Positions 53,098 to 56,180 of a DNA stretch of 64,000 nt are shown piece after piece (within the stretch, counting starts at the first letter, position 1; every line of letters begins with the position of its first letter). Made by a program: the position numbers and the translations under genes. A model generated the notes under the pieces. That model saw nothing but the letters and a program-made list of their open reading frames with translations. It was not told the DNA's origin and did no database searches. This DNA is from a virus. Lineage: Duplodnaviria > Caudoviricetes. The DNA lies in the IMG/VR virus record IMGVR_UViG_3300012983_000037, positions 35,870 to 99,869 of that record; one strand, 5' to 3'.

Positions 53098-53132
53098 AAA
53101 AAAATAGGTATCCCATATTAGGGATACCTATT
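53098..53132 (-). terminator. Intrinsic terminator closing the Ro60/Y-RNA unit
   Basis: AATAGGTATCCC/GGGATACCTATT hairpin followed by a T-run on minus strand, directly 3' of Y-like RNA 4. Confidence 0.85.
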
Positions 53133-53134
53133 GT

Positions 53135-53256
53135 AGTTAAGAATTAAGCAATCAGTATAAAAGTTGCTATAGTGGAACTATAGCGTTGCATGATCTAATT
53201 ATTATTATAAAAGTAAAGGATTTTTTTTTCGATGTAACTGATTGCTGACTTTAACT
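53135..53256 (-). ncRNA. Y-RNA-like RNA 4 (no full tRNA domain)
   Basis: AGTTAA/TTAACT outer stem, AGTC, AGCAATCAG/CTGATTGCT inner stem, TTACATCG motif; starts 8 nt after the Ro60 stop. Confidence 0.72.
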
Positions 53257-53263
53257 TTTGTTT

Positions 53264-54898
53264 TTATATGACTACTTTTCTAACTTTGTCAATATGTGCA
53301 TTTGGATTGAATTCATTTGATGCAATATCATCAAATAGTTTATATCCATATCCAAAGTAATACTGAACTTTGTCAGAATTCTTTACAGGAGTTGTACCAT
53401 ATGCAGCCAAATCTATAGCATAAATGTATGGAGAACATACCTTTCTAATATAGTTTTGATATGCATTTCTTGAACAACCATAGTTAGCCTCATTGTCTGA
53501 AAGAAGTATAATTCTATCATACTTTTTACCAGCTCTAGTTGCACAATTAAATGCTTCTGCAATACTAGTACCTCCCATATTAGTATTTGATATTACTCTA
53601 CCTAAATCAAATACTGAACTGAATAAGTGAGAAGTGTAGTCAAAATATTCTGCTCTTGAACCAAATCTAATAACATCTGCATTAGTTGCTTTTGCTATTG
53701 TTGCAGCAAGAAGTCCTGCCTTTTCACAAGCAGTATGTCTCATTGCAGTTTTACCATTACGACATCCCATATGCATTGATCCTGAACAATCAATCATAAT
53801 AAGAGTCTTTCCTGGTAAGGCTTCTTTAAGATTAGGTATTGCTAATTCATAACCCTTACGAAGTGCTTCTTTTACCCTATTGGCATTTACATTAGCATTA
53901 AATTCTTCTGTAAGGATCTCATAAGCAATATCCATTTGATAAGGCTGAATCATTCCCTTCTTGATAAGTTCACCATTAGATAATAGTTTACAAAGAGAAC
54001 TAATTACTTCTTCTCTTGGGGATTTAACCATGTTTCTAATGTTTCTTAATGCAGCAAGAATACCAAGTTTACCCTCTTTAAGTAAGGCTTCCCAGTTATC
54101 ATTCTTTGCCTCAGTAAGAACTTTTTCTGCTTCTTCCTTATCTAATTTACCTTCCTTAACTGCTTTAGCAACTATTTGACCTGCCTCTGAATTAGCCACT
54201 TCCCAAGTATCTGCTGATACAGTAATACCTCTCATCAATGCATCAAGTACCTTCATTTCCTCACCATTAATAGTGATAGTAGCACTTGAATTAGATGATT
54301 TAGGATGAACTAAATTAGAGATGTCAATGATGGATTTCTTATATTTAGACAATTGATAAGTATCCAAAGATTCAATTGCTTTCGCAAATCCTTTCTTCAT
54401 TGAATTAGTAAGAACACTATTATTCAATGCAGAAAAGACATCTTTAATCTCTGACATATCATCAGGTCTAAATATACATCCTCCTTGCTGAGCCTTTTTG
54501 TTAAATGGTCCATAGAACCTTTTTGCAAATTCTTTTCCACTAATAAATGGAGCCAACAATGCAGCGGCTAAATGATTGATAGACCTCATTCCATCTCTCA
54601 TACATCTTGAATAGACAATTGCCTGAGCAACAAAATAAGGATCTTTAAGACCTAATCTTTCAACAAGATCTCTCAATTCCTGCATTGTTTCTGATTCTGA
54701 ACGATAATATTGAGGCTCTAACTTAATAGTGTTAAGCATTGCAAGTAACCTCAACTCATCTTCCAAAGAATATGCAGAATAACCCTGTCTATTTACAGTA
54801 TCCTCTACTGGAATAGAATTGGCTTCTACAATTCTTTCTTTTGGTGGAATAGCACCAAGTGCACTCTTTAATTGTGCATTTCTGTCTTTCATTTTCAT
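53264..54898 (-). CDS. Ro60/Rsr-like TROVE-domain RNA-binding protein with vWA domain
   Basis: 544 aa from ATG 54898; VNRQGYSAY, YSRCMRDGMRS, TWE, AALRNIRN, MIDCSGSM (MIDAS), GGT, ILLSDNE. Confidence 0.9.
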   Translation of the reverse strand: MKMKDRNAQLKSALGAIPPKERIVEANSIPVEDTVNRQGYSAYSLEDELRLLAMLNTIKLEPQYYRSESETMQELRDLVERLGLKDPYFVAQAIVYSRCMRDGMRSINHLAAALLAPFISGKEFAKRFYGPFNKKAQQGGCIFRPDDMSEIKDVFSALNNSVLTNSMKKGFAKAIESLDTYQLSKYKKSIIDISNLVHPKSSNSSATITINGEEMKVLDALMRGITVSADTWEVANSEAGQIVAKAVKEGKLDKEEAEKVLTEAKNDNWEALLKEGKLGILAALRNIRNMVKSPREEVISSLCKLLSNGELIKKGMIQPYQMDIAYEILTEEFNANVNANRVKEALRKGYELAIPNLKEALPGKTLIMIDCSGSMHMGCRNGKTAMRHTACEKAGLLAATIAKATNADVIRFGSRAEYFDYTSHLFSSVFDLGRVISNTNMGGTSIAEAFNCATRAGKKYDRIILLSDNEANYGCSRNAYQNYIRKVCSPYIYAIDLAAYGTTPVKNSDKVQYYFGYGYKLFDDIASNEFNPNAHIDKVRKVVI

Positions 54899-54932
54899 AA
54901 TTTTGACTATTAAATGATTAAAGTATAAAAAA

Positions 54933-55075
54933 ATAATAGAGAAAGTGTTTAGAGAATTAAAGAAATAAAGATTACAAGTCTTTCGCATGACCATTCTGCT
55001 ATTTCGTGAAAATTGTCACAAAAGTTGGAGTCGAACCAACATAAATCGATGAACCTCTAAACTGACTACTATTAT
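54933..55075 (-). ncRNA. Y-RNA-like RNA 3 with circularly permuted tRNA (T arm, closed acceptor, D arm, anticodon UGU)
   Basis: ATAATAG/CTATTAT and GTTTAGAG/CTCTAAAC stems enclose GTTGG-TTCGACT-CCAAC, TTTTGTGA-loop-TCACGAAA, TAGCAGAATGGTCATGC, AAAGA-CTTGTAA-TCTTT. Confidence 0.85.
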
Positions 55076-55083
55076 ATATTTAA

Positions 55084-55206
55084 AAAGAGAGAAAAGTAGA
55101 TAGGATAATTAAAAATATCGGTCAGAATCGAACTGACTACACAATGCGTTGCAGGCATTTGCTCTACCAACTGAGCTACGAAGTAACCTATCTATGACTA
55201 CTCTTT
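55084..55206 (-). ncRNA. Y-RNA-like RNA 2 with acceptor-less tRNA-Cys(GCA) module
   Basis: AAAGAG/CTCTTT and TAGATAGG/CCTATCTA stems enclose D arm AGCTCAGTTGGTAGAGC, AATGC-CTGCAAC-GCATT, GTCAG-TTCGATT-CTGAC. Confidence 0.85.
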
Positions 55207-55220
55207 ATATTTCAAATAAA

Positions 55221-55361
55221 AAGTTCTGAAGAATGGATTAAAGGGATAAAAAATTCATTAATGCTGGAATCGAACCAACTACCTTAAGTACCCAAAAACT
55301 TACGCTCTAACCAAATGAGCTAATCAATGCGAAGTAACCCTTTAAATTACTATCAGAACTT
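55221..55361 (-). ncRNA. Y-RNA-like RNA 1 enclosing a complete tRNA-Pro(UGG)-like cloverleaf
   Basis: AAGTTCTGA/TCAGAACTT and TTAAAGGG/CCCTTTAA stems enclose CATTGAT/ATTAATG acceptor, D arm, TAAGT-TTTTGGGT-ACTTA, GTTGG-TTCGATT-CCAGC. Confidence 0.85.
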
Positions 55362-55367
55362 ATATTT

Positions 55368-55549
55368 TTAGTAATAACCTACCTCATCTCGTCCAATCTC
55401 AACTTGAGACTAAAGCCTCTTAAGTGACTTTCTTAAGCATGCCTTGGTTATAGTCACTTAGCAAGTGTTATATGGCGTTAATAGCTATTAAAGAGACCTA
55501 TAACTCTAATGCTGGTTTTACCCACCATCTGGGATATGGTTATTACTAA
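55368..55549 (-). ncRNA. Candidate structured ncRNA (~182 nt rod, possibly 6S-like)
   Basis: Perfect 12-bp terminal repeat TTAGTAATAACC/GGTTATTACTAA, inner GGTCTCTT/AAGAGGCT and TAAGTGACT/AGTCACTTA helices; no ORF; strand assumed from neighbours. Confidence 0.55.
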
Positions 55550-55553
55550 TTAG

Positions 55554-55626
55554 TACTCCCTGCCAGAATTGAACTGAGCGTCTCCACCTTGAAAGGGTGG
55601 CGTGTTAACCTCTTCACTAAGGGAGC
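55554..55626 (-). tRNA. tRNA-Glu(UUC)
   Basis: GCTCCCT/AGGGAGT acceptor, CCACC-CTTTCAA-GGTGG, TTCAATT T loop. Confidence 0.88.
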
Positions 55627-55710
55627 AAAATGTAGGTGTAGTTTAAATACTACACCTACTGAACATTGCATGAAAGTTTTTCTCTAAATCGTGTTTCTCA
55701 ACAGGATTTG

Positions 55711-55784
55711 TGGTCCTAGAGGGCTTTGAACCCCCGACCTTCAGATTATGAGTCTGCTACTCTGACCAACTGAGTTATAGGACC
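55711..55784 (-). tRNA. tRNA with CAU anticodon (Ile2 more likely than Met)
   Basis: GGTCCTA/TAGGACC acceptor, CAGA-CTCATAA-TCTG, GGGGG-TTCAAAG-CCCTC. Confidence 0.85.
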
Positions 55785-55997: not shown

Positions 55998-56095
55998 CAC
56001 CACCGTATCAACTTTATTAGGTCTGCATTTCACAATGGAGACTTTTAACATTTAATTTAACCACAACAAAAAACAAGAAAACACAAAAAATGTTG

Positions 56096-56180
56096 TAGCC
56101 TAAGTGAGATTCGAACTCACACGGGCATTTCTGCCCAGAGGATTTTAAGTCCTCCATGTATACCATTCCATCATTAGGCC
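56096..56180 (-). tRNA. tRNA-Leu(UAA)
   Basis: GGCCTAA/TTAGGCT acceptor, GAGGA-CTTAAAA-TCCTC, long variable arm GGGCA-GAAA-TGCCC, GTGAG-TTCGAAT-CTCAC. Confidence 0.92.

What the first reader, a model, noticed from the sequence alone, without database searches (positions are those of the whole stretch)
53098..55361. Phage Ro60 (TROVE) gene with four modular Y-like RNAs carrying interchangeable tRNA-derived inserts
Seen: a Ro60/TROVE+vWA gene has three RNA units upstream (55221-55361, 55084-55206, 54933-55075) and one downstream (53135-53256), followed by a terminator. On the minus strand all four share one scaffold: outer stem, (U)AGUM facing ...UUC(U), an 8-9 bp inner stem, a GUU(A)CWUCG motif, a variable insert and a U-rich linker. 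The stem sequences differ between copies but still pair (GTTTAGAG/CTCTAAAC, TAGATAGG/CCTATCTA, TTAAAGGG/CCCTTTAA, AGCAATCAG/CTGATTGCT), which is covariation within a single locus. Established: bacterial Ro60/Rsr binds Y RNAs through a bulged terminal helix, YrlA-type Y RNAs mimic tRNA without an anticodon arm, and some phages encode Ro and Y RNA. Inference: one protein loads a panel of different tRNA mimics, three with anticodon loops (UGU, GCA, UGG-like) and none with a free chargeable 3' end. They could act as protected decoys for host anticodon nucleases or tRNA-targeting toxins, or as adaptors that tether different enzymes to Ro60.
Basis: partly seen in the sequence, partly recalled or inferred. 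Interest (0 to 1): 0.95.

Follow-up and report, generated by a model that had tools for sequence, protein, structure and literature searches.

The report
Phage Ro60 with tRNA-mimic partner RNAs
A 100-kb gut phage encodes the ring-shaped RNA-binding protein Ro60 flanked by four small RNA genes that share one conserved two-helix "handle" but each carry a different tRNA look-alike; this is an uncatalogued, much expanded form of the known Ro60/Y-RNA partnership and also occurs in the cultured model phage crAss001.

Summary
A Ro60 (TROVE+vWA) gene at 53264-54898(-) has three structured RNA units upstream, one downstream, then a terminator. All four share an outer stem, a UAGUCA / UUCU internal loop, an inner stem and a UUACUUCG-type motif, with variable inserts. 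A covariance model grown from relatives finds 164 units in 85 sources, all on the Ro60 strand. Pairing is 97.7% with compensatory changes in 14 of 14 pairs, while the loops are invariant. In this complete genome the only four units flank Ro60.

The inserts are tRNA bodies in three topologies, or none:
- U1: a whole cloverleaf with an 8-nt anticodon loop.
- U2: a tRNA without an acceptor arm.
- U3: a circularly permuted four-arm tRNA.
- U4: no tRNA.

Anticodons are hypervariable and often non-decoding.

Best reading (about 0.75): these are Y-RNA-like partners of the phage Ro60, a new variant of a known kind (YrlA, Yrn1, phiLo Yrl1/2). No window unit matches Rfam YrlA. Ro60 binding, discrete RNAs and the decoy or adaptor function remain untested.

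The same handle lies beside TROVE genes in jumbo phages, csAssE-Sib and crAss001. This scan has noted similar Ro60-plus-handle RNA arrays before on other genomes.

The parts
53264..54898 (-). Ro60-like gene (TROVE HEAT-repeat ring plus vWA domain with a DCSGS MIDAS motif), 544 aa
   Evidence: Pfam vWA_Ro60 2.9e-6 and TROVE 1e-3. PDB phiLo Ro60 1.7e-11 over residues 38-527 and Xenopus/human Ro60 about 1e-4. The top 13 Foldseek hits are all Ro60/Rsr. MIDAS residues D370, S372 and S374 are invariant in 6 homologues. Homologues start at this ATG.
55221..55361 (-). Unit U1: handle plus a complete tRNA-like cloverleaf (55255-55329). It has a 7-bp AU-rich acceptor and an 8-nt anticodon loop UUUUGGGU. 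The 5' loop variant is UAGUAA.
   Evidence: Fold z -3.65. ARAGORN anticodon 'ttgg'. Rfam tRNA 53.2 bits. Model R2 E 8e-11.
55084..55206 (-). Unit U2: handle plus D arm, anticodon arm (CUGCAAC, GCA) and T arm in normal order. Only about 3 bp (UCG/CGA) stand in place of the acceptor stem.
   Evidence: R2 E 1.3e-15. The alignment with 8 orthologous units shows conserved D and T arms and a covarying anticodon stem.
54933..55075 (-). Unit U3: handle plus a circularly permuted four-arm tRNA. The order is T arm, 7-bp-type closed acceptor hairpin, D arm, then anticodon arm (CUUGUAA, UGU). It ends 35 nt before the Ro60 start codon.
   Evidence: ARAGORN finds a tRNA only across the junction of the rotated insert. 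RNAalifold on 18 such units gives T, acceptor, D and anticodon helices, with 30 of 35 pairs compensated. R2 E 1.9e-10.
53135..53256 (-). Unit U4: handle with a non-tRNA insert (A-rich stretch plus the hairpin GCUAUAG-UUCCA-CUAUAGC), in the 3' UTR of Ro60.
   Evidence: Fold z -3.78. R2 E 9e-8. No tRNA call.
53103..53132 (-). Intrinsic terminator closing the Ro60/U4 transcription unit
   Evidence: 12-bp stem followed by a T run.
55553..55626 (-). Ordinary tRNA-Glu (UUC), last free-standing tRNA of the array upstream of the units. tRNA-Met 55710-55784 and tRNA-Leu 56095-56180 lie further upstream.
   Evidence: ARAGORN and Rfam tRNA.

Best explanation
The four units are Y-RNA-like non-coding RNAs, the RNA partners of the phage's own Ro60 protein.

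Each RNA has two modules:
- A 'handle'. The 5' and 3' ends pair into an outer stem, extended by an invariant A-U and G-C pair next to a bulged U. Then comes a conserved asymmetric internal loop (5' ..UCA / 3' ..UU), an inner stem, and the single-stranded motif UUACUUCG.
- An effector domain enclosed by the inner stem. It is usually a tRNA-shaped body grafted on at the acceptor end (U1, U2) or at the variable-loop position (U3). Sometimes it is a short or non-tRNA insert (U4).

Inferred mechanism, by analogy with Rsr-YrlA/Yrn1 and phiLo Ro60-Yrl1/2:
1. Ro60 recognises the invariant handle nucleotides.
2. The tRNA-like domain stabilises the RNA and presents an L-shaped surface, here including a true anticodon stem-loop, to host tRNA-binding factors or to an exonuclease such as PNPase.
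3. One early-expressed protein is thereby loaded with a panel of different adaptors or decoys.

Shown here: the family, its structure, its linkage to TROVE genes, and the non-decoding character of many inserts. Inferred: Ro60 binding, RNA maturation, and what the tRNA modules engage.
For: 1. The protein is Ro60.
2. The handle is real. Pairing is 97.7%, 14 of 14 pairs are compensated, and the covariation score is 1.01 against 0.22 shuffled and 0.10-0.17 slid. The stems are recovered independently by RNAalifold.
3. The unpaired nucleotides are invariant in 132 distinct sequences while the stems vary freely: G and A of UAGUCA, U/C/C of UUACUUCG, and C of UUCU are each 132/132. This is the signature of a protein-binding site.
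4. Linkage to TROVE genes:
   - 164 of 164 matches lie on the Ro60 strand.
   - 103 are upstream, 43 downstream and 0 inside the gene. The nearest upstream unit ends a median of 51 nt before the start codon.
   - They are the only 4 matches in this complete genome.
   - In four whole relatives' contigs of 164-364 kb, 19 of the 20 matches lie within about 7 kb of Ro60; the other is about 15 kb upstream.
5. A DNA-pattern scan blind to proteins gave 80 loci. The model confirmed units in three contigs, and each carries a TROVE gene on the same strand. Two of these Ro60 lineages had not been found by protein search.
6. The handle persists beside Ro60 proteins only 26-36% identical: csAssE-Sib, the megaphage LR745206 and crAss001 gp96. 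Loop variants are shared by all units of one phage, UGCCA in L003/L050 and GGUGA in csAssE. That fits one phage-specific trans partner.
7. Rfam YrlA aligns weakly (28.5 bits, E 1e-4) to a permuted unit of csAssE. It places YrlA's closing stem plus GNCGAAUGCUU on our inner stem plus AUACUUCG.
8. Precedent: phiLo Ro60 binds two Y-like RNAs encoded just upstream and also binds host PNPase (PMC12135203). YrlA lies near Ro60 in 254 bacteria and 22 phages (PMC4201824).
9. The inserts are not ordinary decoding tRNAs. Among embedded normal-order modules, 11 of 52 have A34 (non-ACG) anticodons or non-7-nt loops, against 6 of 191 free-standing tRNAs in the same loci (Fisher p 7e-5). About 10 of 26 permuted modules have A34.
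Against: - There is no direct evidence that Ro60 binds these RNAs or that stable 120-145-nt species accumulate. Raw RNA-seq runs held no reads, and metatranscriptome contigs only show the region present in RNA libraries of related strains.
- The window units do not match Rfam YrlA at all, and the literal GNCGAA / CGAA Ro-binding motif is absent.
- Model R2 finds nothing at the Ro60 loci of Gordonia phage Neville or Thermus phage phiLo, so homology with the characterised Y RNAs is unproven.
- Some Ro60 loci of this clade show no unit within 3.5 kb.
- In the 635-kb megaphage three units lie 100-147 kb from the only TROVE gene. Linkage is therefore strong but not obligatory.
- The Ro60 structural model is of low confidence (pLDDT 62).
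Confidence: 0.75

Rival explanations
1. The units are unusual tRNA precursors ('caged' tRNAs). The handle is a leader-trailer processing helix. RNase P and 3' nucleases, or cutting of the acceptor loop in the permuted type, release tRNAs or tRNA pieces that work in translation. Ro60 acts at most as a chaperone for the precursors.
For: - U1 and 18 other units hold a complete cloverleaf with a 7-bp acceptor stem that starts exactly at or one base before the end of the UUACUUCG motif.
- Rfam tRNA scores are above gathering for U1 and U2.
- GenBank annotators call such inserts tRNA-Tyr and tRNA-Lys in csAssE-Sib.
- The units sit inside tRNA arrays.
- M. smegmatis YrlA, with a 7-bp acceptor stem, is cut by RNase P and receives CCA (PMC4201824).
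- The permuted type here also has a 7-bp acceptor hairpin.
Against: - Three of the four window units cannot give a standard tRNA. U2 has about 3 bp of acceptor stem, U3 is permuted at the variable loop and bacteria have no known pathway to re-join it, and U4 has no tRNA.
- U1 has an 8-nt anticodon loop and an all-AU/GU acceptor stem.
- Embedded modules are enriched for A34 and odd loops (p 7e-5).
- Anticodons change between close relatives while the D and T arms stay fixed.
- Minimal 65-93-nt units with no tRNA keep the full handle. The handle's invariant loops are therefore selected for themselves.
Confidence: 0.1
2. The handle is bound by, or acts through, something other than Ro60. Candidates are another early phage protein, a host RNase III/E processing site, or a cis-regulatory element of the operon. 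Its nearness to the TROVE gene would then reflect only shared residence in the early tRNA/ncRNA region.
For: - Binding was not tested.
- In the megaphage LR745206 three units are 100-147 kb from the TROVE gene.
- Several Ro60 loci lack units nearby.
- Neighbouring small ORFs are of unknown function.
- The canonical CGAA motif is missing.
Against: - The TROVE gene is the only gene consistently next to the handle across phages whose Ro60 proteins are 26-75% identical and whose genomes range from 100 to 635 kb.
- Units lie both upstream and downstream of the gene, which does not fit a 5'-UTR regulator.
- The blind pattern scan led back to TROVE genes each time.
Confidence: 0.1
3. The repeats are decaying tRNA pseudogenes flanked by chance inverted repeats, with no function.
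For: The region is AT-rich and full of tRNA genes. Loose stem descriptors give many chance hits in shuffled sequence.
Against: - Compensatory changes occur in every stem pair, and the loops are invariant over 132 distinct sequences.
- Strand bias is absolute, 164 to 0.
- The family is conserved across very distant phages.
Confidence: 0.01

Closest known systems
YrlA (Y RNA-like A; Rfam RF02553; Chen et al. 2014 PMC4201824; Wang et al. 2018 bioRxiv 10.1101/312249)
   Same: - Encoded next to Ro60/Rsr on the same strand, in phages as well as bacteria.
- The 5' and 3' ends pair into a stem that carries a conserved 5'-strand motif.
- The effector domain is a tRNA mimic with T arm, closed acceptor hairpin and D arm in that order, as in U3.
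- The Rfam model aligns weakly (28.5 bits) to a permuted unit of a relative, with the motif regions superposed.
   Different: - No window unit reaches even E<=10 against RF02553, and eight related loci give no hit.
- The motif is UUACUUCG, not GNCGAAN0-1G.
- There is an extra outer stem with the invariant UAGUCA/UUCU loop.
- U3 keeps a complete anticodon arm and joins the handle at the variable-loop position instead of replacing the anticodon stem.
- U1 and U2 have the opposite (normal) topology.
- There are 3-7 units per phage rather than 1-2.
Deinococcus radiodurans Yrn1 (Y RNA bound by Rsr, tethers PNPase; described in PMC4201824)
   Same: The tRNA-like part is in normal order, with the Y stem at the acceptor position and a 5-bp 'anticodon arm' between D-like and T arms, as in U1 and U2.
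   Different: Yrn1 has a 6-nt loop and only partial D features. Here the D arm, T arm and a canonical 7-nt anticodon loop (Y-U-NNN-R-A) are all present.
Thermus phage phiLo Ro60 with Yrl1 and Yrl2 (PMC12135203; PDB 9KOP, 9L5Y)
   Same: A phage Ro60 with several Y-like RNAs encoded directly upstream. It is the best PDB sequence match of this protein (1.7e-11). Binding and recruitment of host PNPase were shown experimentally there.
   Different: The phiLo RNAs were defined by a CGAA motif and have no described tRNA module. Model R2 finds nothing in the phiLo locus.
Circularly permuted tRNA genes of algae and archaea (cited in bioRxiv 10.1101/312249)
   Same: U3-type inserts have the 3' half before the 5' half, with the acceptor stem closed by a loop.
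   Different: Those are processed by splicing endonuclease and ligase into real tRNAs. Here the break is at the variable loop, the ends are held in a conserved protein-binding handle, the anticodons are often non-decoding, and the phage encodes neither RtcB nor Rnl2.

Membership tests
Ro60 / Rsr (TROVE + vWA) | TROVE HEAT-repeat ring domain | tested here: met
   Pfam TROVE scores only 18.8 bits, below the 23-bit cut-off. However, there is a full-length phmmer match to phiLo Ro60 (1.7e-11, residues 38-527), and the top 13 Foldseek hits are all Ro60/Rsr over more than 510 columns (the model has low confidence, pLDDT 62).
Ro60 / Rsr (TROVE + vWA) | C-terminal vWA domain with MIDAS DxSxS | tested here: met
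   Pfam vWA_Ro60 scores 27.7 bits, exactly at the cut-off. D370, S372, G373 and S374 are invariant in 6 homologues.
Ro60 / Rsr (TROVE + vWA) | Binds Y RNA / misfolded RNA | not testable with these tools
   Needs RIP, EMSA or a structure.
YrlA (Rfam RF02553) | Reaches the Rfam gathering score (69 bits) | tested here: not met
   No hit at E<=10 on any window unit, and none at E<=1 in 8 related loci. The best relative scores 28.5 bits (csAssE). A bona fide actinophage locus also reaches only 44 bits.
YrlA (Rfam RF02553) | GNCGAAN0-1G motif near the 5' end | tested here: not met
   The conserved motif is U-U-A-C-U-U-C-G. The model alignment puts it at the equivalent place, so it may be a diverged counterpart.
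YrlA (Rfam RF02553) | T arm, closed acceptor hairpin and D arm in that order | tested here: met
   Met for U3 and 25 other distinct units. Not met for U1, U2 and U4.
YrlA (Rfam RF02553) | Y stem takes the place of the anticodon stem; no anticodon loop | tested here: not met
   U3-type units keep a 5-bp anticodon stem with a 7-nt loop, and the handle joins at the variable region.
Y RNA (functional class) | Stem formed by the 5' and 3' ends with conserved nucleotides, plus a variable effector module | tested here: met
Y RNA (functional class) | Encoded near Ro60 on the same strand (Chen 2014 criterion: within 4 kb) | tested here: met
   Window units lie 7 to 463 nt from the gene. 164 of 164 matches are on the same strand. 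Distances are given.
Y RNA (functional class) | Stable RNA bound by Ro60 in vivo | not testable with these tools
   Raw RNA runs held no reads, and contigs are uninformative.
Canonical tRNA (RF00005) | Rfam gathering score (29 bits) | tested here: met
   U1 scores 53.2 bits and U2 49.6 bits. U3 scores 26.3 bits for the D plus anticodon arms only. U4 gives no hit.
Canonical tRNA (RF00005) | 7-bp acceptor stem with free ends and a 7-nt anticodon loop with a decodable anticodon | tested here: not met
   U1 has an 8-nt loop, U2 has about 3 bp of acceptor stem, and U3 is permuted. Family-wide there is an excess of A34 and odd loops. Free ends could arise only by processing, which was not tested.

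The most novel reading that the evidence does not exclude
The phage loads one early Ro60 protein with a fast-evolving panel of anticodon-stem-loop displays. The canonical loop frame (Y-U-NNN-R-A) and the covarying stem are kept, while the triplet changes between close relatives (GCA, UUU, UGU and others, including non-decoding A34 triplets). The panel would act as Ro60-protected decoys or sensors for host tRNA-targeting defence nucleases, or as programmable adaptors that bring chosen tRNA-binding enzymes or complementary RNAs to Ro60 and an associated exonuclease. That would be an arms-race RNA system not described for any Y RNA.
Probability: 0.15. Interest if true: 0.85.

Novelty: new variant of a known kind. 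Interest (0 to 1): 0.62.

Why it matters
Y RNAs remain poorly understood, and what their tRNA-like domain is for is an open question (PMC4201824). This family gives that question a natural experiment.

- One invariant handle carries whole tRNAs, acceptor-less tRNAs, permuted four-arm tRNAs or nothing, sometimes all beside a single Ro60 gene.
- Real anticodon arms are present, and their triplets turn over quickly.
- The family is widespread in gut and rumen crAss-like, jumbo and mega-phages.
- It is present downstream of the early TROVE gene gp96 of crAss001, a cultured model phage. Binding, processing and infection phenotypes can therefore be tested directly.
- In practice it also means phage tRNA counts are inflated. 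Public records annotate these mimics as tRNA-Tyr, tRNA-Lys or 'tRNA-OTHER'.

Tried and rejected
- Expression evidence: two raw-read RNA runs held no reads on the stretch. Two metatranscriptome runs gave only assembled contigs from about 96%-identical strains, which show neither ends, strand nor proof of transcription.
- Alignments: MAFFT alignments of mixed or minimal unit types put the stems in inconsistent registers. I therefore seeded the model from two same-register units and iterated.
- First stem-only descriptor: it gave fewer hits in the genome than in shuffles and was abandoned. Adding the loop motifs fixed this.
- Regex-based anticodon-arm finder: it mis-registered many loops and its numbers are not used.
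Loci from only 3 of the contigs it returned contain a model-confirmed unit.
- Model R2 at the Gordonia phage Neville and Thermus phiLo Ro60 loci: nothing found.
- Model R2 in 150 genomes of the Bacteroidota family of a Prevotella MAG: nothing found. Only about 23 candidates per genome were scored.
- Genome-collection search for the protein: it returned only phage contigs binned into MAGs.
- RtcB and Rnl2-type RNA ligase: neither is encoded by this phage, so no RNA-repair linkage.
- Neighbouring small ORFs: they match only PHROGs of unknown function.
- Literature: Burroughs and Aravind 2016, Sim et al. 2020 and Sim and Wolin 2018 are not held in the library. Prior mention there of tandem or tRNA-bearing phage Y RNAs could not be checked.
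- Ribozyme or known-RNA identity of the handle: no Rfam match.
Full report
**What is there**

On the minus strand the window holds, in transcription order:
- tRNA-Leu, tRNA-Met and tRNA-Glu;
- a 188-nt structured element;
- three RNA units: U1 55221-55361, U2 55084-55206 and U3 54933-55075;
- a 544-aa gene at 53264-54898;
- a fourth unit, U4 53135-53256;
- a strong terminator at 53103-53132.

The gene is a Ro60 homologue:
- It matches Pfam vWA_Ro60 and, more weakly, TROVE.
- It aligns end to end with the solved Ro60 of Thermus phage phiLo (1.7e-11) and with Xenopus/human Ro60.
- It keeps the MIDAS DCSGS motif.
- A low-confidence AlphaFold model (pLDDT 62) retrieves only Ro60/Rsr chains as its 13 best Foldseek matches.

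The genome is a complete 99,869-bp phage with terminal repeats. It has crAss-like features (giant RNAP-like ORFs). Near-identical strains occur in bovine gut and manure samples.

**The shared scaffold is real**

Each unit folds into an outer and an inner helix around a variable insert. I collected Ro60 homologues from viral and metagenome contigs. I seeded a covariance model from two minimal units of other phages, and rebuilt it once from its 93 matches.

What the model and the alignments show:
- The second model finds 164 units in 85 sources, every one on the Ro60-coding strand, including all four window units.
- On 132 distinct sequences 97.7% of stem cells pair, against 38-50% when partners are slid. 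All 14 pairs show double compensatory changes, and the covariation score is 1.01 against 0.22 for shuffles.
- That alignment is fitted to the model. As a check, RNAalifold on an independent MAFFT alignment of 18 units recovers the same helices.
- RNAalifold also adds two pairs: the A and G of UAGUCA pair with the U and C of UUCU. The G-C pair is invariant.
- The unpaired nucleotides are almost frozen: 5' loop U-A-G-U-C-A, post-stem motif U-U-A-C-U-U-C-G, 3' loop U-U-C-U.

Free stems with frozen loops are what a protein-binding handle looks like.

**Linkage to Ro60**

- In this genome the four units are the only matches.
- In four whole contigs of relatives (164-364 kb), all 20 matches are on the Ro60 strand. 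Nineteen lie within about 7 kb of the gene and one is about 15 kb upstream.
- Across loci, 103 units are upstream, 43 downstream and none inside the gene. The nearest upstream unit ends a median of 51 nt before the start codon.
- A protein-blind scan of viral contigs for TAGTCA..TTACTTCG gave mostly chance hits. The model confirmed units in three contigs, and each carries a TROVE gene on the same strand. Two of these Ro60 lineages (36% identity or less) had not been found by the protein searches.
- The handle also sits beside very distant Ro60 genes (26-32% identity):
  - three units directly upstream of the 'Ro sixty-related protein' of phage csAssE-Sib;
  - one unit beside the Ro60 of a 635-kb megaphage;
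  - at least three units in the unannotated 900-nt gap after the TROVE gene gp96 of cultured Bacteroides phage crAss001.
- Variants of the loop sequence are shared by all units of a phage, UGCCA in L003/L050 and GGUGA in csAssE. This is expected if they co-evolve with one phage-encoded partner.
- Exceptions exist. Some Ro60 loci show no unit within 3.5 kb, and three units of the megaphage lie 100-147 kb from its only TROVE gene.
- No unit was found in 150 sampled Bacteroidota-family genomes.

**The inserts**

| Unit | Insert | Evidence |
|---|---|---|
| U1 | Complete cloverleaf with a 7-bp, all-AU/GU acceptor stem and an 8-nt anticodon loop UUUUGGGU | |
| U2 | D arm, anticodon arm (CUGCAAC) and T arm in normal order, with only UCG/CGA where the acceptor stem should be | |
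| U3 | Circularly permuted: T arm, closed acceptor hairpin, D arm, then a canonical anticodon arm (CUUGUAA) | |
| U4 | No tRNA part | |

- ARAGORN sees a tRNA in U3 only when the insert is rotated. RNAalifold supports all four arms, with 30 of 35 pairs compensated.
- Among 85 distinct units from relatives, ARAGORN classes 26 as permuted, 19 as full and 11 as acceptor-less. Of the remaining 29, about 11 are minimal 75-93-nt units, and many of the others are acceptor-less forms that ARAGORN misses.
- Anticodon triplets are very diverse.
[quoted passage not shown] The loop keeps its Y-U-NNN-R-A frame, but the triplet switches among GCA, UUU and UGU.
- Embedded normal-order modules carry non-decoding features (A34 other than ACG, or loops that are not 7 nt) in 11 of 52 cases, against 6 of 191 free-standing tRNAs in the same loci (p 7e-5).
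- About 10 of 26 permuted modules have A34.

These are therefore tRNA mimics rather than working tRNAs, although public records annotate some of them as tRNA-Tyr or tRNA-Lys.

**Most likely mechanism**

By analogy with published systems, these are the Y RNAs of the phage Ro60.
- Bacterial Rsr binds YrlA and Yrn1, whose effector domains mimic tRNA, and Yrn1 tethers PNPase (PMC4201824; bioRxiv 10.1101/312249).
- Thermus phage phiLo Ro60 binds two Y-like RNAs encoded just upstream, and also binds host PNPase (PMC12135203).
- In crAss001 the TROVE gene is transcribed within 10 minutes of infection (PMC8375218). This suggests a role in host take-over or counter-defence.
- The phage encodes no RtcB or Rnl2 ligase, so this is not an RNA-repair operon of the Salmonella type.

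Which invariant element contacts Ro60 is not known. The Rfam YrlA model, aligned to a permuted unit of csAssE, superposes YrlA's closing stem plus GNCGAAUGCUU on our inner stem plus AUACUUCG. On that alignment the inner stem and motif are the likelier counterpart of the known site, and the outer bulged helix is an addition.

Ro60 binding, RNA ends and the partners of the tRNA modules are inferences. RNA data were uninformative.

**Comparison with the known**

The family fails the membership tests for Rfam YrlA:
- no hit on any window unit, even in a 171-nt search;
- none in eight related loci;
- a different motif;
- an anticodon arm that is present rather than replaced;
- an extra outer helix.

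It still works like a Y RNA and meets the class-level criteria that could be tested. Both graft topologies have precedents, YrlA (permuted) and Yrn1 (normal order with an anticodon-like arm).

What is new:
- both topologies, plus whole cloverleaves and empty handles, sit on one common handle in arrays of 3-7;
- the anticodon loops are canonical but hypervariable;
- the family is spread through gut crAss-like, jumbo and mega-phages.

I found no paper in the searchable library describing this. Three relevant reviews were not available. Earlier notes of this scan describe similar Ro60-plus-handle arrays on other genomes. I did not test those claims.

**Verdict**

This is a new variant of a known kind. 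The decoy or adaptor idea remains open, at about 0.15 for the strong arms-race version.

Noticed in passing
window 55361-55548 (-): A 188-nt, GC-richer, strongly structured element (MFE -53.6 kcal/mol, z -4.4) lies between tRNA-Glu and U1, closed by UAAUAACC/GGUUAUUA. It is unique in the genome and absent from all related loci. A related strain's contig joins 55360 directly to 55549, so exactly this element is an insertion/deletion polymorphism. It has no Rfam match and may be a small mobile or self-processing RNA element.
   Followed up: partly
L224 5580-6480 (Bacteroides phage crAss001 MH675552, about 95970-96870): The 900-nt unannotated gap after the early TROVE gene gp96 holds at least three model-confirmed handle units (E 1e-7 to 6e-5). 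Further ones are visible by eye, with a UAGUG / UUACUUCA / UGUUCU variant and fragmentary tRNA parts. This is a cultured system in which the family could be tested.
   Followed up: partly
L097 4621-4693 and 4766-4839 (phage csAssE-Sib OR575929): GenBank annotates the tRNA-like inserts of two handle units as ordinary tRNA-Tyr and tRNA-Lys. The 'Tyr' one has G instead of U at position 33. Phage tRNA inventories probably over-count because of such mimics.
   Followed up: partly
LR745206.1 342959-343028, 369033-369172, 388895-389000: In a 635-kb megaphage three handle units lie 100-147 kb from its only detectable TROVE gene (about 241 kb), besides one adjacent unit. Linkage is therefore not obligatory in very large genomes.
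   Followed up: no
alignment A7, 5' loop versus 3' loop (window U1 55221-55361 as example): Variation inside the 'unpaired' internal loop is correlated. AGUCA goes with (U/C)UUUCU, AGUAA with CAUUCU, UGUUCU or AAUUCU, and UGCCA with UAUUCA. This suggests a structured non-canonical pair across the loop.
   Followed up: no
L221 / L219 (genome contigs): Phage contigs of 169 kb and 410 kb carrying this Ro60 and its units are binned into a Prevotella MAG and a rumen 'Firmicutes' MAG. This is a weak host hint at best, and an example of phage contigs inside MAGs.
   Followed up: no
window 55632-55659 (-): A terminator-like 11-bp hairpin lies between tRNA-Met and tRNA-Glu inside the tRNA array. The Ro60/Y-RNA block may therefore start a separate transcription unit at tRNA-Glu.
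   Followed up: no
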